This document shows, piece after piece, positions 4,936 to 16,400 of a stretch of DNA of 45,108 nt (position 1 is its first letter; each line of letters starts with the position of its first letter). The stretch comes from a virus: the UHGV virus genome UHGV-0324336. The stretch is one strand, 5' to 3'. A program made the translations under genes and the position numbers. Under the pieces are notes generated by a model that had not been told where the DNA came from, searched no databases, and saw only the letters and a program-made list of their open reading frames with translations.

Positions 4936-5011
<76 letters not shown>

Positions 5012-5013
5012 AT

Positions 5014-5090
<77 letters not shown>

Positions 5091-5091
5091 A

Positions 5092-5168
5092 CTGGACCGC
5101 CACCGGGGACTCGAACCTCGCACACTCAACTTAAAGGGTTGACGCTCTTTCCTGATGAGCTAGTGGCG
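5092..5168 (-). tRNA. tRNA-like gene with atypical anticodon loop (CCUUUAA; Lys-UUU-like but C33); possible pseudo- or non-canonical tRNA
   Basis: Manual fold: acceptor CCGCCAC/GTGGCGG, D-arm GCTC…GAGC, T-loop TTCGAGT, CCA encoded, but position 33 is C and T-stem has an A·C mismatch. Confidence 0.5.
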
Positions 5169-5169
5169 G

Positions 5170-5245
5170 CTGGTGGCCCTTGCTGGATTTGAACCAGCGA
5201 CCTGGCGATTATGAGTCGCTCGCTCTCACCACTGAGCTAAAGGGC
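5170..5245 (-). tRNA. tRNA-Ile2/Met type (anticodon CAU), ileX/ileZ-like
   Basis: Manual fold: GGCCCTTTAGCTCAGTGGTGAGAGC…CTCATAA…GGTTCAAATCC…GGGCCACCA; closely resembles recalled E. coli ileX (lysidine tRNA-Ile2). Confidence 0.75.
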
Positions 5246-5351
5246 CGGGCGCAGGATAATAACGTTACGAAATCAATGTTGCAAGCATTCAAAAATCACC
5301 CTTATCTCCTCCACCAGCGCATTCACCATGTCTATCCGAGATAAGTGGCAC

Positions 5352-7926: not shown

Positions 7927-8124
7927 ATGCTAAAACAAACTGAAAGTAATATACCGGACTTGTAAAGGAACGATAGAATAATTATTGGATTAAACCCTGA
8001 CTCAATCCAGATTTCATAGGCAACAACTACGGACTAATCATCACAGTCATGTTTGATAGACTTAGTCCACATTGGGTGAGGGTTTACGGCGTTTTCACTA
8101 ATAATTTATCGTCCAAGCTATACA

Positions 8125-8816: not shown

Positions 8817-9463
8817 AGCCTGCTTCTCCTTGCCTTTCGGCACGTAAGAGGCTAACCTAGATTTGCCGTTCATAGATTGAGCCTCAGATTAATGTTAAGC
8901 GTCTTGCAGGACGCGTAATGTTAACTGGGGCTTTTCTCTATCTGCCTTTGGTGTTCATGCCTGAGGCAGATAGCCTCAAGCACCCGCAGCAATTCTACTT
9001 AACTCACGTCACCTCGCCAATATAAAATCAATCAGAAAGGCGATCCATAAGAACAACAGCAAGGCAATAAATTGCCATTACAGCAGCAATAGCCAGCGCA
9101 CATTTGAGAACCAGCACCACAACCTCCTGTATTGGACGTACACCAGTCCTGATAAATATGAGGCTGTCTCGTCAGTGATTCAATACAACTATTGGGTATA
9201 GTTTCTGTGATTTTGTTCTGTAGAAATGGAACACAACAACCAGTCACCACCAGCACTTCTTTAAATACGCCAAGTCCGACGCAAGCTAACTTTCTAGTCC
9301 GCTTTGAGCGAGAAGAGGAAGTTCATAATTATTACCAGTACAGCGTATTACTAATTATTTTTACACTGAAAGCATTGAGGTGAGAAGGGGGTTTTTATGC
9401 TTGATTTAATTATAAAATTGCAGGAAAGTGACCTTGTATCAGCTGATGATGAGTGGGTAAAAA

Positions 9464-10843
9464 ATGTGGAAAGATAAGTATATTTGTCATAAATGCGTGA
9501 ACGATAAATATGTCATGCAGCATATAATAAAAACCGGAAATAATGTTCGGATTTGCTCTTACTGCAAAAGGAAGCGTAAAAACATCCACCTCAAATATAT
9601 TCTCAAGATGATGAATGAGGTTTTTGAGTACTACTATGATATGTATGAGGATATCTATGATTCCGGGCGCGGTGATAGCGCGCAGGATGTCATCTGCGGA
9701 GAACTGGGCGTCGAATGGGACGTAGCTGAAGATATTTATGAATTTCTTTGTGATGAATATAATCCGCATAACGATTATGACTACATCCGGTATAATGATG
9801 GGTTTGTTTATCGGCACATAAATCACTATAGCGGAGAGCTTGCGCATACCTGGAGTAAAGCCACTGACTCCCTTATGAAAGAAACACGATATTTTAACCG
9901 TGAAGTTAATGATTTCCTGGATTCACTTTTCAGTGATATCGATAAACTAAAAAACAGAGACAGTAATTCACCGATAAAAACTCTGACTGATGAGGTTCAT
10001 CTTTTTCGTGCAAGGGTCTTTGAGGACCAAGAGGAAGTAAAGCAAGCCTTGGAGCAGCCCGAGAAAAATTTTGGACCTCCCCCATCAACTTTGGCTCGGT
10101 CGGGCCGTATGAACGCACAGGGGATTTCAGTATTTTACGGTGCAACCTCAGTGAATTTGGCAATTGCTGAAGTAAGGCCGCCCGTCGGCAGTATTGTAGT
10201 AACGGCCTGTTTTGTACCGTTACGCGAGCTAAAAGTGCTGGACATTTCTGCCCTTGACTCGATTAGTTTCGGCTCAGGTAGTAAATTTGATCCTCAGACT
10301 CGCAAAACCAGTGAGCGCGCGATTTTTTTCAGTACGCTTTCCCGTAAGTTGACGCTTCCTACTTTTGGAAAAAGGCAGGACAGTGATTACCTCATCACCC
10401 AAGTGGTTGCCGATTACCTAGGTGACCGAAATAAATTTAAGCTTGATGGTGTCAGCTTTAAATCTACCCAGGTAGATGCCAACGGTGAGGATGCTGAGAT
10501 AGGATATAATGTCGTTCTGTTTAATAAGTCTTCCGGCGTCAGGCATGCCGCAGATAAATCTCGCCGATATAATGTTGAGATGTATGAACACATCGAAGAT
10601 GACCAGTATGCTTTTGTTCCGGAAATTCAGTTAATAGTTGAGGAACAAATAAAACCGAGACATATGGGTTCATTTTCATCCTCGCATGACAAAAATGATG
10701 CACTACTGTTGAAAACCAACAGTATGACTTATCATAAAATTACTGGTGTAAAATACCAAACAAGTGAGACGGAGATTCATCAGGGAGATAGTGTTCGAAA
10801 ACAAGAGCCACCTCAGAAATTCGATGACCTGATGGACTTCTGA
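9464..10843 (+). CDS. RES-domain protein (putative NAD+-targeting effector) with N-terminal CxxC…CxxC zinc-ribbon domain
   Basis: Candidate RES triad R215 (GRMN), E236 (LAIAEV), S331 (DGVSFKS) with intervening YG; N-terminal C8-x2-C11…C31-x2-C34; AT-rich codon usage. Confidence 0.65.
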   Translation: MWKDKYICHKCVNDKYVMQHIIKTGNNVRICSYCKRKRKNIHLKYILKMMNEVFEYYYDMYEDIYDSGRGDSAQDVICGELGVEWDVAEDIYEFLCDEYNPHNDYDYIRYNDGFVYRHINHYSGELAHTWSKATDSLMKETRYFNREVNDFLDSLFSDIDKLKNRDSNSPIKTLTDEVHLFRARVFEDQEEVKQALEQPEKNFGPPPSTLARSGRMNAQGISVFYGATSVNLAIAEVRPPVGSIVVTACFVPLRELKVLDISALDSISFGSGSKFDPQTRKTSERAIFFSTLSRKLTLPTFGKRQDSDYLITQVVADYLGDRNKFKLDGVSFKSTQVDANGEDAEIGYNVVLFNKSSGVRHAADKSRRYNVEMYEHIEDDQYAFVPEIQLIVEEQIKPRHMGSFSSSHDKNDALLLKTNSMTYHKITGVKYQTSETEIHQGDSVRKQEPPQKFDDLMDF

Positions 10844-11257
10844 TCATCCGTTATATCAGGGTAAACTATTATTAAAGATGATGTGAGGGCAGTTAAGGAA
10901 GGAATTCACCCTGTATCGCCTGTATCGCGTTACTGGCGTCCCTTGATACCAAGCGGGCAGATTGGTGAACAGGCACGTCTGTTTGAGCGAGGAGCTGGCT
11001 TTGTAGAATGCCTCAAGGGATAAAAACACCTTATTTACGCAACTTACTGCGAAAGGACCATGGCTTTGCTGGCTTCGGATACGTTGCTGAGTTCCTCAGC
11101 CACCTTAAGTAACCGGCGTTGTGTTTGATGATAGGATTGTTAGTATGGAATATGAGAATTACCTCTTGTATTGTATAACACTTCGGCCCCATATCAATAC
11201 CAGTAACTCTTAATCTTTCAAAGCCATGTGTCAGATCAAGTCACGACTAATGCAAAT

Positions 11258-11288
11258 AATAGACAGATATCATTCTAATCTGTCTATT
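11258..11288 (-). terminator. perfect 11-bp inverted repeat hairpin between convergent genes
   Basis: AATAGACAGAT-(9 nt)-ATCTGTCTATT, 17 nt 3' of the HExxH gene stop; AT-rich, no clean U-tract. Confidence 0.35.
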
Positions 11289-11304
11289 ATTATGTCAAAA
11301 TTAT

Positions 11305-12228
11305 TTAGTGTAATTCCGAAAGGAGCCTAGTAACAAACTCTTTATATGTTGTAGCTTTATAATCAAGCTTACGGTTTTCCTGTCTCATCACCGCGATGAG
11401 AAGACAAGCTGTAAAACACCAGAAGGGCGATGAATCTGAAAGGTTGTACCCCCCTATCATTGTTTGAATCCTTACTGCTATAGATGGATACTCTTCACCA
11501 CCCCATTTATCGATATCTGATGTTAAAGCGTGTATAGTAAAGGCGGCAAGTGTTATCCCCATTGCTCGTTTTTGCATGACCTCTTCATAGGTATGCCCAG
11601 CTTTTTTAGCATAGACTCCGACGCCCTTAGTTATATATTCACGAGCCCAAGAGTCACAGGCTAACTCTTCTTCATCCTTCTCTTGGGGATTTTCATGTTT
11701 TTTTTCTTCGGCTCGTGCTTGAACATGTTTATACTCATGAAGTATAGAAAAAGACAATGCTAATGCTACTAGATCAAAAACAGCCTGTTCTTGAATATTA
11801 TTCAAACTATCTCGCGCATCTGTTGGAAAAGGAATATCTTGAGGCCATGTAATATCAGCCGTATTCGCAACGCTTAGCAAAGACTTTGAAATATACAAAT
11901 GCTGTTTATAATTTAGTTCAAATTGGCCACGTTCTTCATCAGATTCTAAAGCCGACTCTAACGTCACACCTAGTAAGCATGCTTTTACTAGGGCTGGAGC
12001 ATATGTCTCAATCGTAAACCATGTACTAAACCCAAATAACCAAAAGAAATCGATAGTTTTAGAGTCAAACTCGATGCGCCTACTAGTTGCATTCATTGTT
12101 GATCCTAGGGCATCCTCTGCAAGTTCGACCGTGTGTTTATAGCTCTTCCAGGTCTGACAAAGTTCATCAGCATTCTCAGGAACAGCCCCTCTTAGGAGGT
12201 TTAAAACTATAGTATCTAGTGATGGCAT
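11305..12228 (-). CDS. putative zinc metallopeptidase (HExxH), possibly Lit-like phage-exclusion protease
   Basis: Single HEYKH motif at residues 164-168 of 307 aa; size and motif position close to e14 Lit (297 aa, HExxH ~160-164, recalled); AT-rich. Confidence 0.5.
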   Translation of the reverse strand: MPSLDTIVLNLLRGAVPENADELCQTWKSYKHTVELAEDALGSTMNATSRRIEFDSKTIDFFWLFGFSTWFTIETYAPALVKACLLGVTLESALESDEERGQFELNYKQHLYISKSLLSVANTADITWPQDIPFPTDARDSLNNIQEQAVFDLVALALSFSILHEYKHVQARAEEKKHENPQEKDEEELACDSWAREYITKGVGVYAKKAGHTYEEVMQKRAMGITLAAFTIHALTSDIDKWGGEEYPSIAVRIQTMIGGYNLSDSSPFWCFTACLLIAVMRQENRKLDYKATTYKEFVTRLLSELH

Positions 12229-12605
12229 AAAACTGACTCCTTATTCTACTTGTTATAAAACAACGATGTTATGTTAATCACCTATTTTAGATGTTCATAG
12301 AATTCTTAAGACATCAATCATAGCAAAATAAAAAGCATATAGTGCTATATTAAACCACTAGCAAAAATGAATATAAAATGTGGTTTTGTCCGTTCCAGCC
12401 ACAAGCGATCAAGGGAGAGGAATGAGGTTTTCAATGAGCGTATAGTAAGCATTTTCATTACAACTTAGAAGCATCGAGTAAATATCATTACTAATCCAAT
12501 ATGACTATGATGAACTAAGCTTCAGATTTATAATTATCATCATAACTAGAAGCTAGGTTGCTGAAAAGGAAGTCAATAGCATCCCTTAACTTAAAACCTA
12601 TGATT

Positions 12606-13139
12606 CTATATTCCTTTTTTATAATCTCTAGACAAAAAATCAAACAGGACTTTACGTTTGTAAAGTAACGTAACCCTTACATTTTCAAGATCTGACTCCT
12701 TAATATCAGGTTTGCCATCATAATAATTTCTCCGCATTGCTTTTAAATAATCACCGTAGTCTCTTAAAGCAACTGATGTGTCAGTTAAACCTAAAAGCAA
12801 AAGCTTCGACTCTGCAACTGTCAAGCTTTTAAAATTGTCAAATAAATCTAATTTTGTTTTATTTAACTCCTCTTGCCTTTCTCTGGTAAGATCCAATCCC
12901 TTTTGTTCCTTATTTCTAACCCATTCAATTATCAAAGCCCAATAGCGTAAGGATATATGTGTCATATCCTCAATTTGAGTGCTTACAGATTCTAATGAAT
13001 CATAATAGCGACGACTTTTATCTTTATCAAATTCATGTTTGTGATTCATTTTTGAAATAATAAATGTACCTGTCAGCGTTATTATACCACCAAATCCAAT
13101 CTTCACAGCCGTATCAACAACTTCCACCCAGGTTGTCAT
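12606..13139 (-). CDS. hypothetical membrane-anchored protein (177 aa)
   Basis: N-terminal TM helix (VKIGFGGIITLTGTFIIS) then charged helical domain; AT-rich island gene with own upstream gap. Confidence 0.55.
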   Translation of the reverse strand: MTTWVEVVDTAVKIGFGGIITLTGTFIISKMNHKHEFDKDKSRRYYDSLESVSTQIEDMTHISLRYWALIIEWVRNKEQKGLDLTRERQEELNKTKLDLFDNFKSLTVAESKLLLLGLTDTSVALRDYGDYLKAMRRNYYDGKPDIKESDLENVRVTLLYKRKVLFDFLSRDYKKGI

Positions 13140-13424
13140 CCAAAACTACCTCTTGATGTTATTAAACACTCTACTAAACCAATGCATTGGAAACTAATTA
13201 TTTCTTACGCAAATACATATTCTAATATTATGTCTTCTACTAGAACCAAAATCAATCATTAGTGAAAGTGAAATAAAAGCGACATGGGCATAATGCTGCT
13301 GAGTATTGATCAGCAATTAGTTATGGATGAACGTCCTCTCTTGGCACAAAGCGGACAACCACGCTAGCTCTACCCTGTGCCACAAAATGTCAATTTGCAT
13401 CTGAACTAATGCACTTTAATCTCG

Positions 13425-15029: not shown

Positions 15030-15455
15030 TCAATGTACTGCCACAGCATTTCCTGCCGGGCCACCACGGTTCATCTGATTGAAACCGGCGATTGCCACTG
15101 CGACAAAATCATCAGCGTCTCTCACCAATCGCTCCCGCGTCTCCACCAGCTCCCGAAAATAAGCTGAACTGTGGCTGCGCATTCTGGCCACCAGCAAAGG
15201 TGGCATTGCCTTTTCGATCGCTGGTAACAACGCCTGAATTTTTTCAACTGCATCAGGGGTGTCTTTCTCTACCCAGCGGAAAATTTTCTGGGTATTGCGA
15301 GCCAGGGCTTCCGGATGGCTGTCGTCATACAGTTCAGGAAACGTCATACCCAACTCAAAATAAGCCTGGGTTATTCCAGCTGCTGGAACTTTTTCGCCAT
15401 CAGGACGCGCCCAGGCATTCATCGCCATGCGGATGTGTTCATGCTTGATTTTCAT
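15030..15455 (-). CDS. YdaT-family protein (Rac YdaT-like; proposed CII-like regulator/toxin)
   Basis: 141 aa, starts MKIKHEHIRMAMNAWA…; ATGA-coupled to the cro-like gene as ydaS-ydaT are in Rac (recalled). Confidence 0.55.
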   Translation of the reverse strand: MKIKHEHIRMAMNAWARPDGEKVPAAGITQAYFELGMTFPELYDDSHPEALARNTQKIFRWVEKDTPDAVEKIQALLPAIEKAMPPLLVARMRSHSSAYFRELVETRERLVRDADDFVAVAIAGFNQMNRGGPAGNAVAVH

Positions 15456-15682
15456 GAATCCCCCCCTTGGTTAGAAGGCGGATTATGATCAGAACCGGGA
15501 ATGACAACCGTCGGTATGTGTAACTCATATTTGAGCGCCCCGGCAGTGACTGCCTGAATTAGCAACGCCCATTTCCACGGAACCTCTTCCCCCCACATGC
15601 TGACTGTGGTTTTTGACGTTCCTAGAGCTGCGGCTGTTTTAACAACTCCGCCAAAATAGCCTAATACTTCTGATTTTTTCAT
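15452..15682 (-). CDS. Cro/YdaS-like HTH regulator (76 aa)
   Basis: MKKSEVLGYFGGVVKTAAALGTSKTTVSMW… HTH; GGAG 6 nt upstream of ATG at 15682; divergent from cI. Confidence 0.7.
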   Translation of the reverse strand: MKKSEVLGYFGGVVKTAAALGTSKTTVSMWGEEVPWKWALLIQAVTAGALKYELHIPTVVIPGSDHNPPSNQGGDS

Positions 15683-15710
15683 AAGTCGCTCCATAAAACT
15701 GAACGCCAAA

Positions 15711-15773
15711 ATTTTAATAATCAAAACCAAAGAAAGTCAAGAAACAAAACCATCTGTGTTTTAAAATCAAAAC
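15711..15773. promoter_or_regulatory. OR-like operator region between cro and cI
   Basis: ATTTTAATAATCAAAAC (15711-15727) and GTTTTAAAATCAAAAC (15758-15773, abutting cI ATG): inverted half-sites GTTTT/AAAAC. Confidence 0.45.
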
Positions 15774-16400
15774 ATGAGCAAGCAAACAATATCTGAACGC
15801 ATAACCCAACGTATGCATGCGCTAAACCTGAAAGGCAAAGACCTTGTCAATGCCACTGGCGCATCAAAAGGCTCCGTAAGTCAATGGATGAACGGTGGAG
15901 GAGCGCCGTCCTCGCGTTACATAAGTTCACTGGCAAAGATATTGAAAGTAAACGAAAATTGGCTTCTTAATGGAGGAGAGTTAAATACAGGTGATTCGCT
16001 TGATCTATCTTTACCGCCGATAAAAACGGTTCCGCTACTATCAGCAAGCTGGAGTGATTATATGAAAAATTCCTCAATAACCTCTTGTGTGCAGCTTGTC
16101 GGAGAAATCCCGGCCAATACCTTTGCAGTTGTTCTAGAGAGTGACAGTATGTCAACATCTGGTGGGGGAGTTTCCATCCCAAATGGTTCAACAGTTTTTG
16201 TTGATCCCGATCGAACCGTACAACCAGGAAATATTGTCCTTGCCTTACCCAAAGGGACCACAACACCTGTCATTCGTAAACTGGAGATAGAAGGGCCGGA
16301 TATTCTTTTAGTCCCCACGAATCCTCGCTACCCTTCAATTATGCTGGATGATCTATCTTGCATATTGGGCGTATGCTTTAAAATTCAACAAGATATTTAA
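15774..16400 (+). CDS. CI-like prophage repressor (HTH_XRE + S24 LexA-type autopeptidase)
   Basis: N-terminal HTH (ATGASKGSVSQWMNG); C-terminal S24 signature with Ser in ESDSMS and Lys in VIRKL. Confidence 0.85.
   Translation: MSKQTISERITQRMHALNLKGKDLVNATGASKGSVSQWMNGGGAPSSRYISSLAKILKVNENWLLNGGELNTGDSLDLSLPPIKTVPLLSASWSDYMKNSSITSCVQLVGEIPANTFAVVLESDSMSTSGGGVSIPNGSTVFVDPDRTVQPGNIVLALPKGTTTPVIRKLEIEGPDILLVPTNPRYPSIMLDDLSCILGVCFKIQQDI

What the first reader, a model, noticed from the sequence alone, without database searches (positions are those of the whole stretch)
12606..13139. Membrane-anchored 177-aa protein in the island, candidate abortive-infection or exclusion factor
One N-terminal TM helix followed by a charged, helix-rich cytoplasmic domain, encoded alone with ~375 bp of AT-rich upstream sequence. 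Small single-TM proteins in prophage accessory islands often act as Abi or superinfection-exclusion factors. It may work with the adjacent HExxH gene (same strand) or independently.
Basis: inference. Interest (0 to 1): 0.5.

Follow-up and report, generated by a model that had tools for sequence, protein, structure and literature searches.

The report
Unannotated membrane-anchored helical-bundle accessory protein
The 177-aa gene is real and belongs to a large, unnamed family of small membrane-anchored proteins that mostly travel as single-gene integron cassettes; here it sits in a prophage cargo island next to a Lit-type exclusion protease, so an anti-phage role is plausible but untested.

Summary
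The ORF 12606-13139 exists on the minus strand. It has a Shine-Dalgarno site and a promoter-like site conserved in four hosts, and it is under purifying selection. It encodes one N-terminal hydrophobic helix (residues 11-29, predicted N-out/C-in) that runs straight into a cytoplasmic four-helix bundle (AF2 pLDDT 90).

One detail of the finding is wrong. The 377-bp AT-rich stretch lies downstream of the gene, in front of the Lit-like gene. The true upstream spacer is 285 bp.

The protein matches no Pfam, NCBIfam, PHROG or PADLOC model and no specific solved fold. It does belong to a family of about 1,070 50%-identity clusters, nearly all about 175 aa.
- 26 of 75 related loci are integron cassette arrays, four with intI nearby.
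- In Psychrobacter the gene is syntenic (ampD-X-murJ).
- It is rare in viral contigs.

No relative outside Enterobacteriaceae has a Lit or RES neighbour. Within Enterobacteriaceae, X177 and the Lit-like gene form a 2.2-kb module found in four different mobile elements. Lit homologues at 67% and 53% identity lack X177, and the Salmonella X177 lacks Lit.

Best reading: an autonomous single-gene membrane protein from the cassette pool, probably anti-phage. This is inference, not demonstration. The main rival is a non-defence membrane function. Interest is moderate.

The parts
12606..13139 (-). X177 coding sequence (177 aa, ATG start, TAG stop), 33% GC
   Evidence: ORF list. Homologues of the same length. 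Excess of third-position differences. GC content.
13053..13109 (-). Codons for residues 11-29, the single predicted transmembrane helix. The family's most conserved motif, D9-T-A-V-K13-I-G15-L-G17-A, starts just before it.
   Evidence: Hydropathy and flank charges. Invariant D9, K13 and G17 and near-invariant G15, L16 and A18 across 51 distant members. Helix 4-80 in the AF2 model.
12615..13007 (-). Codons for residues ~45-175, the predicted cytoplasmic four-helix bundle. Conserved polar residues are H61, Y66, W67, T107, E110, R126 and R162.
13149..13154 (-). Shine-Dalgarno AAGAGG, 9 nt upstream of the ATG
   Evidence: Sequence. Invariant in the E. coli, Klebsiella, Enterobacter and Citrobacter copies.
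13227..13255 (-). Sigma-70 promoter-like site TTGATT-17 nt-CATAAT belonging to the gene
   Evidence: Consensus scan. Both hexamers lie in an invariant block of the four-host alignment while neighbouring positions vary. Promoter activity is inferred, not shown.
12229..12605 (-). 377-bp AT-rich spacer between the X177 stop and the Lit-like start.
   Evidence: 31% GC. 74.7% identical to the Klebsiella copy, with 38 gap columns, against 90% for the X177 CDS. No Rfam match. Only ORFs of 42 aa or less. No notable repeats.
11305..12228 (-). Lit-family (Peptidase_U49, HExxH) gene, co-mobile neighbour of X177
   Evidence: Pfam PF10463, 30.5 bits against a cutoff of 23.9. PADLOC Lit, 1.3e-18. RefSeq name 'phage exclusion protein Lit family protein'.
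11181..13356 (-). 2.2-kb two-gene module (X177 promoter + X177 + spacer + Lit-like gene) shared with three other genera
   Evidence: blastn gives 83.5% identity to a Klebsiella P4-like satellite (window 13356-11181), 88.3% to an Enterobacter P2-like prophage (13345-10977) and 81.6% to a Citrobacter lambdoid prophage (13335-11181).
9316..13329 (.). Strain-specific cargo island (RES gene 9464-10843 on +, Lit-like gene, X177) in the DUF977/ren-hokD hot spot of the prophage
   Evidence: Flanks match E. coli O157:H16 Santai up to 9315 and from 13330. That strain carries a different 270-aa gene at this site. The whole island is in 4 of 5,426 genomes.

Best explanation
SHOWN. X177 is a functional, autonomously transcribable gene for a small bitopic inner-membrane protein. 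A short acidic N-terminus is predicted to face the periplasm. One glycine-rich TM helix carries the family's invariant D9/K13/G17 motif. That helix continues without a break into a cytoplasmic four-helix bundle.

The protein belongs to a large family with no model in Pfam, NCBIfam, PHROGs or PADLOC. The usual vehicle of the family is a single-gene integron cassette, so it needs no dedicated partner gene. In Enterobacteriaceae one lineage left the cassette pool. It became joined to a Lit-type protease gene in a 2.2-kb block, and that block has been dropped into cargo hot spots of lambdoid prophages, a P2-like prophage and a P4-like satellite.

INFERRED. It most likely acts as a stand-alone anti-phage factor at the inner membrane.
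- The cytoplasmic bundle, with conserved buried-type polar residues H61, E110, R126 and R162, would recognise a cytoplasmic infection cue.
- The conserved small-residue TM helix would then self-associate or engage a membrane component to perturb the membrane. This would be abortive infection.
- Blocking DNA entry (superinfection exclusion) is the less likely mode, because almost nothing of the protein is predicted to be exposed to the periplasm.
- In this reading Lit and RES are independent neighbours stacked in the same island.
For: Real gene under selection.

Topology and fold. The TM N-terminal motif is the most conserved part of the family across 51 members at 21-45% identity.

Autonomy:
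- 75 loci from other species have no conserved partner and no Lit or RES.
- 26 of 75 loci have X-flanking sequence repeated along the locus, as in attC arrays.
- 23 of 75 have a TAA-C stop overlapping the repeat start.
- Integron integrases (TIGR02249, 408-477 bits against a cutoff of 265) lie next to or near X in L012, L033, L034 and L052.
- The gene's own promoter-like site and SD are conserved in four hosts.

Defence context:
- The cargo hot spot holds Lit and RES genes.
- The same X177-Lit block sits in a P4-like satellite, in a P2-like prophage after ogr, and in a second lambdoid prophage.
- The Aeromonas orthologue is followed by a weak AbiGi-like gene.
- The Salmonella orthologue sits in an integrase-rich island, followed by a gene with a PD-(D/E)xK-like motif, read by eye.
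- A 50%-identical E. coli relative lies in a P2-like prophage that also carries AbiTii.
- A P. aeruginosa plasmid copy lies among TA systems.

Literature:
- 16 of 88 tested V. cholerae cassettes and 9 of 57 V. parahaemolyticus cassettes protect against phages (PMC12409362).
- About a third of mobile-integron defence cassettes carry TM helices (10.1101/2024.07.02.601719).
- TM-only cassette proteins have been shown to protect: 'Brigantia' (10.1101/2024.07.02.601686) and LDILCD_22380 (10.64898/2026.03.17.712381).
Against: No experiment addresses this protein, and no sequence or specific fold similarity links it to any known defence protein.
- The only PADLOC hit (2TM effector, E 0.0043) occurs in 1 of 33 members and is a chance match.
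- Foldseek against the PDB and BFVD gives nothing at E<=1e-3.
- In Psychrobacter the gene is syntenic in 12 species between ampD and murJ, with median identity 72% against 81% for AmpD. In three Acinetobacter species it follows uvrA. This is unusual for defence genes.
- Among 150 genes within two positions of family members, recognisable defence genes are scattered and present in roughly a tenth of loci, with no formal enrichment test.
- The family is very rare in viral contigs.
- TM hydrophobicity is borderline, with mean KD about 1.5.
Confidence: 0.42

Rival explanations
1. A non-defence membrane protein. The family would provide a general physiological function at the inner membrane, such as envelope or cell-wall-related stress adaptation or another small regulatory role. 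The E. coli copy would be a passenger gene that travelled with Lit.
For: - Stable vertical inheritance in Psychrobacter between the cell-wall genes ampD (Amidase_2) and murJ, 24-47 bp after ampD.
- Conserved position after uvrA in three Acinetobacter species.
- Most neighbours in other taxa are ordinary metabolic or unknown genes.
- Most integron cassettes tested so far are not anti-phage: 72 of 88 and 48 of 57 (PMC12409362).
- No PADLOC model matches, including the candidate 'PDC' families derived from defence-island context.
Against: - Distribution in Enterobacteriaceae is extremely patchy: 4 of 5,426 E. coli genomes.
- The gene recurs in phage and satellite cargo hot spots and next to Abi-like genes.
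- It has been retained with its own promoter through at least three transfers between mobile elements.
Confidence: 0.35
2. A two-gene system with Lit. X177 would be the membrane-bound sensor, regulator or antidote of the adjacent Lit-type protease, and the pair would be the functional unit.
For: The two genes, their spacer and about 200 bp of upstream sequence move as one block with nearly the same end points into four different mobile elements in four genera, with X177 91-96% and Lit 79-88% identical. They are on the same strand, with X177 first.
Against: - Lit homologues at 67% identity (P2-like prophage, upstream gene Mrr_cat on the opposite strand) and at 53% identity (P. aeruginosa) have no X177.
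- The Salmonella X177 (82% identical) has an unrelated 181-aa downstream gene, and DNA homology stops at the ORF ends.
- None of 75 other family loci has a Peptidase_U49 neighbour.
- The 377-bp spacer diverges faster than both genes and carries indels.
- The e14 Lit protein is known to work without a partner gene (established knowledge, not tested here).
- All four co-occurrences can derive from a single ancestral juxtaposition.
Confidence: 0.12
3. A superinfection-exclusion protein. Expressed from the prophage, it would sit in the inner membrane and block genome entry of incoming phages, rather than killing the infected cell.
For: It is a prophage-borne small bitopic membrane protein with a promoter-like site of its own. 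A membrane-located integron cassette protein, Deva, has been reported to interfere with T7 genome injection (10.1101/2024.07.02.601719).
Against: - Only about 9-10 residues are predicted to face the periplasm, and the conserved bulk is cytoplasmic.
- The family is mainly chromosomal or integron-borne and rare in phages.
- It matches no PHROG exclusion family.
Confidence: 0.08

Closest known systems
Transmembrane-only single-gene anti-phage integron cassettes ('Brigantia' of the V. cholerae chromosomal integron; BrcWGS21 and Deva of mobile integrons; LDILCD_22380 of V. vulnificus)
   Same: These are small single-gene units that encode proteins whose only recognisable feature is a TM segment, and they are carried as integron cassettes. 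The X177 family is a recurrent cassette. It has members in V. vulnificus, V. cholerae and V. parahaemolyticus.
   Different: No sequence of those proteins was available, so identity or homology could not be tested. No phage phenotype is known for X177. The window copy is not in an integron and has no attC.
Lit (Peptidase_U49) phage-exclusion system of prophage e14
   Same: The immediate same-strand neighbour is a Lit-family protein, and X177 co-transfers with it in Enterobacteriaceae. Both are prophage cargo.
   Different: X177 is not a protease and has no similarity to Lit. Lit homologues elsewhere lack X177, and X177 homologues elsewhere lack Lit.
Four-helix-bundle sensor domains of chemoreceptors and histidine kinases (for example PDB 4k0d, 5xsd, 2d4u, 1lih)
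   Different: Sequence identity is 4-12%, and designed helical bundles score equally well. Foldseek finds nothing at E<=1e-3. The sensor domains are periplasmic and lie between two TM helices. X177 has one TM helix, a predicted cytoplasmic bundle and no output domain.
Prophage-encoded small membrane exclusion/abortive-infection proteins (lambda RexB, P22 SieA/SieB, T4 Imm; from general knowledge)
   Same: These are small membrane proteins expressed from a prophage accessory region, and the proposed action is at the inner membrane.
   Different: No sequence or profile similarity: PHROGs gave 0 hits and PADLOC gave no consistent hit. The family lives mostly outside phages.
Pfam DUF4760 (a UniRef label on one Vibrio homologue, P0020)
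   Same: Similar size (about 150-180 aa) and an N-terminal hydrophobic helix (from memory of the Pfam entry). One source name links the two.
   Different: No DUF4760 hit was listed for any scanned member, even in the run at E<=10 that included P0020 itself.

Membership tests
Pfam DUF4760 | Match to the Pfam HMM at or above the gathering score | tested here: not met
   The window protein has 0 Pfam families at E<=1 and at E<=10. P0020, which carries the UniRef label, has no DUF4760 hit at E<=10. No DUF4760 hit is listed among the 33 close and 51 distant members scanned, although only the top 25 families are shown.
Integron gene cassette | attC recombination site at the 3' end of the ORF (inverse core ...TAAC to core GTTR..., imperfect palindrome), repeated at every cassette boundary | tested here: met
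   Met for relatives, not for the window copy.
- In L010, L012, L023, L034 and L097 the ORF is flanked by members of 70-135-nt repeat families that start with TAAC and end with GTTA/GTTAT.
- The L034 copies fold with paired ends.
- 26 of 75 loci have repeated flanks and 23 of 75 have a TAA-C stop.
- The window copy has no attC-like site and no repeated flank.
Integron gene cassette | Integron integrase (IntI) divergently oriented at the head of the array | tested here: met
   TIGR02249 'integron integrase' scores 408-477 bits (cutoff 265) on the opposite strand upstream of X in L012, L033, L034 and L052. X is the first ORF after intI in L033 and L052. The window has no intI.
Lit (Peptidase_U49) system component | Consistent co-occurrence with a Peptidase_U49 gene across the family | tested here: not met
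   0 of 75 loci from other species have a Lit neighbour. Co-occurrence is seen only in E. coli, Klebsiella, Enterobacter and Citrobacter copies that share one 2.2-kb block. Lit homologues at 67% and 53% identity lack X177.
RES-toxin partner (e.g. Xre-RES-type pair) | Co-occurrence and operon arrangement with the RES gene | tested here: not met
   RES is on the opposite strand, 1.8 kb away, with Lit in between. 97%-identical RES genes occur alone elsewhere in E. coli. No family locus has RES. The Klebsiella, Enterobacter and Citrobacter modules lack it.
CBASS-type 2TM/1TM membrane effectors (PADLOC PDLC00699/00665) | Profile match shared by family members | tested here: not met
   The window protein scores E 0.0043 over 59 residues. 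Only 1 of 33 family members hits each model. No cyclase neighbour is present.
Four-helix-bundle (4HB_MCP-like) sensor domain | Antiparallel four-helix bundle continuous with a TM helix | tested here: met
Four-helix-bundle (4HB_MCP-like) sensor domain | Periplasmic location between two TM helices, an attached signalling output, and a sequence-profile match | tested here: not met
   One hydrophobic segment only, and charge bias predicts a cytoplasmic bundle. There is no further domain in 177 aa. No Pfam 4HB_MCP hit. Foldseek E>0.05.
Phage housekeeping membrane proteins (holin, spanin, etc.) | Membership of a phage protein family and position in a lysis or structural module | tested here: not met
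   0 PHROG hits. 0 tblastn hits in 50,697 phage records. 9 loci in 2.9 million viral contigs, only 3 of them substantial. The lysis genes of this prophage lie elsewhere.
Abortive-infection / superinfection-exclusion factor | Protects the population from phage (reduced EOP, or MOI-dependent collapse) | not testable with these tools
   This requires phage challenge experiments. Only contextual evidence is available.

The most novel reading that the evidence does not exclude
The X177 family (about 1,000 clusters, no model in the four libraries scanned) is a new autonomous single-protein anti-phage system. It would be a membrane-tethered four-helix-bundle sensor whose conserved D-x3-K-x-G-x-G transmembrane helix executes membrane disruption. 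Integrons spread it as a one-gene cassette, and prophages and satellites of enteric bacteria have repeatedly recruited it. A bolder variant is that it is a portable membrane sensor that can be placed in front of different effectors: Lit protease, a PD-(D/E)xK-like protein in Salmonella, and an AbiGi-like protein in Aeromonas. In each case the effector gene lies about 300-400 bp downstream on the same strand.
Probability: 0.3. Interest if true: 0.65.

Novelty: new variant of a known kind. Interest (0 to 1): 0.4.

Why it matters
If the inference holds, this is a compact, 534-bp, single-gene defence candidate from a family with no model in Pfam, NCBIfam, PHROGs or PADLOC v2. The family has over a thousand sequence clusters in Proteobacteria, Acidobacteriota, Verrucomicrobiota, Bacteroidota and cyanobacteria.

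The locus also documents a concrete route by which genes leave the integron cassette pool and enter prophage and satellite cargo hot spots of Enterobacteriaceae, here welded to a Lit-type protease.

Even if the gene is not anti-phage, the family deserves a name. Its most conserved part is the membrane-embedded N-terminus, it is core in Psychrobacter next to cell-wall genes, and nothing is known about it. The test is cheap: clone 0.8 kb and challenge with phages.

Tried and rejected
1. Family libraries. Pfam, PHROGs, PADLOC and NCBIfam scans gave nothing consistent for the window protein, 33 close members or 51 distant members. The UniRef 'DUF4760' label could not be reproduced. The PADLOC '2TM effector' hit is a one-off.
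2. Solved structures by sequence. A profile search against PDB sequences gave a best E of 0.25.
4. attC detection. The strict RYYYAAC/GTTRRRY consensus plus arm complementarity was too strict and found nothing. An MFE-based scan was insensitive, flagging 7 of 76 loci. Both were replaced by a within-locus repeat test and by IntI detection.
5. The 377-bp spacer. No hidden element was found: no Rfam match, only unconserved ORFs of 42 aa or less, no meaningful repeats, and faster divergence with indels.
6. Published cassette proteins. Sequence comparison with Brigantia, the BRiCs and LDILCD_22380 was not possible, because the held texts and supplements contain no matching sequences.
7. A conserved partner gene. 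Clustering of the four genes either side of X in 75 loci showed that only genus-level synteny is conserved, in Psychrobacter and Acinetobacter.
8. One failed look-up. The context of P0009 (Psychromonas) is not on record.
Full report
**The observation**

An ATG-initiated ORF of 177 aa lies at 12606..13139 on the minus strand. AAGAGG sits 9 nt before the start codon. The ORF has 33% GC, against 50% for the window.

The ORF is a real gene.
- 68 homologues of nearly the same length were found with E down to 1e-101.
- A profile search over 1.84 billion representatives found 1,069 clusters at E<=1e-3, of which 499 are at E<=1e-10. Almost all are 170-185 aa.
- Differences from the Klebsiella and Salmonella orthologues fall 9/5/38 and 27/15/84 on codon positions 1/2/3, which is the signature of purifying selection.

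One detail of the finding is wrong. On the coding strand the 377-bp, 31%-GC stretch (12229-12605) lies downstream of this gene and upstream of the next one. The true upstream spacer is 13140-13424 (285 bp).

**The protein**

- The only hydrophobic segment is residues 11-29. Its family-mean Kyte-Doolittle value is about 1.5, which is borderline.
- The N-terminal flank has net charge -2 and the 15 residues after the segment have +2 to +3.5, in 92-100% of members. This predicts N-out/C-in, with about 10 periplasmic residues and a cytoplasmic body.
- AlphaFold2 on a 33-sequence alignment gives pLDDT 90 and pTM 0.75. One long helix (residues 4-80) runs from the membrane into a bundle completed by helices 86-115, 119-138 and 148-175.
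- In the close family the invariant residues are D9, K13, G15, G17, H61, Y66, W67, A68, T107, E110, L113, L115, R126, G129 and R162.
- Across 51 distant members (21-45% identical) only D9, K13 and G17 stay invariant, with G15, L16, A18, L113 and L115 near-invariant. The membrane-proximal N-terminus is therefore the most conserved part of the family.

**What it is not**

- No Pfam, PHROG, NCBIfam or consistent PADLOC match exists for the window protein or for 84 relatives.
- The 'DUF4760' name that UniRef gives one Vibrio homologue is not reproduced, even at E<=10.
- The PADLOC '2TM effector' hit (E 0.0043) occurs in 1 of 33 members.
- A profile search of PDB sequences gives a best E of 0.25.
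- It is not a phage housekeeping protein. There is no tblastn hit in 50,697 phage records. There are nine loci in 2.9 million viral contigs: one is this same prophage, two are substantial matches, and six match only the N-terminus.

**Local context**

The window is a lambdoid prophage of E. coli with a CI-like repressor, a YdaT-family protein, a replication initiator, a DUF977/Ren-like gene, hokD, RusA, Q and lysis genes. Window 9316-13329 is a strain-specific insert. The flanks match E. coli Santai at >99% up to 9315 and from 13330, and that strain carries a different 270-aa gene at this site.

The insert holds three genes:
- a RES-domain gene on the plus strand;
- a Lit/Peptidase_U49 gene on the minus strand (Pfam 30.5 bits; PADLOC Lit 1.3e-18);
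- X177 on the minus strand.

Only 4 of 5,426 complete E. coli genomes have the island.

**Co-occurrence, from the X177 side**

A scan of one genome per species returned 79 loci, mostly Gammaproteobacteria, with some Acidobacteriota, Verrucomicrobiota, Bacteroidota and a cyanobacterium.
- None has a Lit or RES neighbour.
- Clustering the four genes either side of X shows conserved neighbours only within Psychrobacter (12-14 species) and Acinetobacter (3 species).
- Pfam and PADLOC scans of 150 neighbours show no recurrent partner. A minority of loci carry defence genes such as MADS, DarT/NADAR, PDC-S31 and PDC-S48.

**Integron cassettes**

In many marine and Pseudomonas or Xanthomonas-type genomes the gene lies in a one-directional array of short ORFs separated by 70-135-nt repeats. 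These repeats start with TAAC and end with GTTA/GTTAT, and one copy lies on each side of X (L010, L012, L023, L034, L097).
- The L034 copies fold with their ends paired.
- 26 of 75 loci (26 of the 61 outside Psychrobacter) have X-flanking sequence repeated on the same strand elsewhere in the locus. 23 of 75 have a TAA-C stop overlapping the repeat start.
- Integron integrases (TIGR02249, 408-477 bits against a cutoff of 265) lie divergently upstream in L012, L033, L034 and L052. X is the first ORF after intI in L033 and L052.
- IS110-family transposase genes also lie close to X in L011, L038, L081 and L097.
- A Vibrio subclade occurs in V. vulnificus, V. cholerae, V. parahaemolyticus, V. metschnikovii, V. 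rotiferianus and V. splendidus at 74-97% identity.

The family is therefore a bona fide, recurrent single-gene cassette. This is the strongest evidence that it works without a dedicated partner. The window copy itself has no attC.

**Core-genome copies**

In Psychrobacter the gene sits 24-47 bp after ampD (Amidase_2) and before murJ in every species sampled. Median pairwise identity is 72%, against 81% for AmpD and 93% for MurJ. In three Acinetobacter species it follows uvrA. Such stable vertical inheritance is unusual for defence genes and is the main argument for a more general membrane function.

**Co-occurrence in Enterobacteriaceae and from the Lit side**

The closest homologues show a different picture. 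X177 is again followed, about 400 bp downstream on the same strand, by a 307-aa Peptidase_U49 gene in three other settings:
- Klebsiella (X177 92% identical), in a P4-like satellite with AlpA and a DUF927 primase;
- Enterobacter (96%), in a P2-like prophage just after ogr;
- Citrobacter (91%), in a lambdoid prophage near DUF968.

DNA homology to the window runs from 13335-13356 to 11181, or to 10977 in Enterobacter, at 82-88% identity. A discrete 2.2-kb two-gene block has therefore been placed into four kinds of mobile element.

Within this block a TTGATT-17-CATAAT promoter-like site and the SD are invariant while surrounding bases vary. The 377-bp spacer is the least conserved part, at 74.7% identity with 38 gap columns.

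The association does not extend further.
- The Salmonella orthologue (82% identical) shares homology only over the ORF itself (13140-12612). It is followed by an unrelated 181-aa gene with a PD-(D/E)xK-like motif, read by eye, that has no Pfam or NCBIfam hit.
- The Aeromonas orthologue (62%) is followed by a weak AbiGi-like gene.
- Lit homologues at 67% identity (in a P2-like prophage, next to an Mrr_cat gene) and at 53% identity (P. aeruginosa) have no X177.

The simplest reading is one ancestral juxtaposition followed by co-transfer, not obligatory partnership.

**Mechanism**

Shown: a selected, autonomously mobile gene for a bitopic membrane protein with a cytoplasmic four-helix bundle, its own conserved promoter-like site, and no obligatory partner.

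Inferred: an anti-phage role. The inference rests on four kinds of evidence.
- The hot spot is shared with Lit and RES.
- The gene has been repeatedly recruited into prophage and satellite cargo sites.
- It neighbours Abi-like genes in Aeromonas and in a second E. coli prophage.
- Published tests show that 16 of 88 and 9 of 57 unknown cassettes protect against phages (PMC12409362). About a third of mobile-integron defence cassettes carry TM helices (10.1101/2024.07.02.601719). TM-only cassette proteins such as 'Brigantia' and LDILCD_22380 do protect (10.1101/2024.07.02.601686; 10.64898/2026.03.17.712381).

Almost the whole protein is predicted to be cytoplasmic, and the conserved TM helix is rich in small residues. 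I therefore favour cytoplasmic sensing coupled to membrane perturbation (an Abi-type mode) over a block of DNA entry.

My confidence in the anti-phage reading is about 0.4. The non-defence membrane function is about 0.35, the Lit-partner model about 0.12, and the entry-block (Sie) mode about 0.08.

**Comparison with known systems, and novelty**

The nearest known kind is the recently described class of single-gene, TM-only anti-phage integron cassettes. I could not obtain their sequences, so I could not test whether X177 is one of them. It fails the membership tests for DUF4760, CBASS TM effectors, a Lit-system component, a RES partner and phage housekeeping proteins. It shares only a generic fold with four-helix-bundle sensor domains.

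I rate it a new variant of a known kind: an undescribed family within the class of small membrane-anchored accessory or defence-candidate proteins. Interest is moderate (0.4). The family is large, unnamed and cheap to test, but nothing here is mechanistically surprising yet.

Noticed in passing
window 11190-11258: A 69-nt stretch just 3' of the Lit-like gene, at the edge of the shared 2.2-kb module (boundary 11181), matches about 3,000 E. coli genomes at about 90% identity. In K-12 the matching sequence lies between mnmH and the ylbG pseudogene (an HTH/transposase-like remnant). This may be an IS-end remnant. Rfam gives only a sub-threshold psRNA2 match at 11156-11331 (24.8 bits against a gathering score of 65).
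   Followed up: partly
window 11255-11291: A perfect 14-bp inverted repeat (AATAATAGACAGAT / ATCTGTCTATTATT, 9-nt loop) lies immediately after the Lit-like stop codon, between the convergent RES and Lit genes. It is a likely bidirectional terminator hairpin.
   Followed up: no
window 9464-10843: The 459-aa RES-domain gene, which has a weak HEPN/RES N-terminal domain hit, occurs at 97% identity at other chromosomal sites in other E. coli genomes without Lit or X177. It is therefore an independent mobile unit.
   Followed up: partly
L002 3317-4302 (E. coli O157:H16 Santai): The same DUF977-hokD hot spot carries a different cargo gene in many other E. coli strains, a 270-aa hypothetical protein (WP_000161640.1) on the opposite strand. 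This shows that the site is a cargo-exchange hot spot.
   Followed up: partly
L090 6931-7476 (Salmonella enterica): The gene downstream of the Salmonella X177 orthologue encodes a 181-aa protein with a PD-(D/E)xK-like motif (IPDF...IIEVK). It has no Pfam or NCBIfam match and lies in an integrase-rich island. It may be an uncharacterised nuclease-type defence gene.
   Followed up: partly
L098 6836-7570 (Aeromonas hydrophila): An X177 homologue (62% identical) inserted after the trp operon is followed 299 bp downstream by a 244-aa protein with a weak AbiGi match. The layout, with the same strand and a 300-400-bp gap, recalls X177-Lit and the Salmonella pair.
   Followed up: no
L117 2522-5968 (Pseudomonas aeruginosa): A Lit homologue (53% identical) lies near conjugation genes. 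It is preceded, after a 381-bp gap, by a 365-aa protein with no Pfam hit, and followed by T5orf172/MUG113 and 172-aa genes. This may be a different Lit-containing multi-gene arrangement.
   Followed up: no
L119-L121 and L096: P2-like prophages carry swapped cargo in the tail-gene region around gpR/gpS. L119-L121 have Lit (67% identical) plus Mrr_cat next to gpS, and L096 has AbiTii between gpS and the spike gene. L096 also carries a 50%-identical X177 relative at the contig end.
   Followed up: no
L014, L021, L027 and 9 further Psychrobacter loci, around position 8000: The family member is a syntenic core gene between ampD (Amidase_2) and murJ, 24-47 bp after ampD. This hints at a link to cell-wall recycling or lipid II export in this genus.
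   Followed up: partly
L033 6672-8531; L052 6821-8522: In two chromosomal integrons the X177-family cassette is the first ORF after intI, the position reported to be most highly expressed (PMC12409362).
   Followed up: no
window 4937-5246: A cluster of four tRNA genes (Gly-TCC, Thr-TGT, Lys-TTT, and a CAT-anticodon tRNA that ARAGORN calls Met and RefSeq calls Ile) lies between the Q antiterminator and the lysis genes of the prophage.
   Followed up: no
window ~15440-15730: RefSeq annotates the cro-like gene of the identical prophage in strain PF9285 as frameshifted, and annotates only a short 'LexA family protein'. The window itself has a 208-aa repressor-like ORF (15774-16400). The prophage may be defective, or the annotation may be inconsistent.
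   Followed up: no
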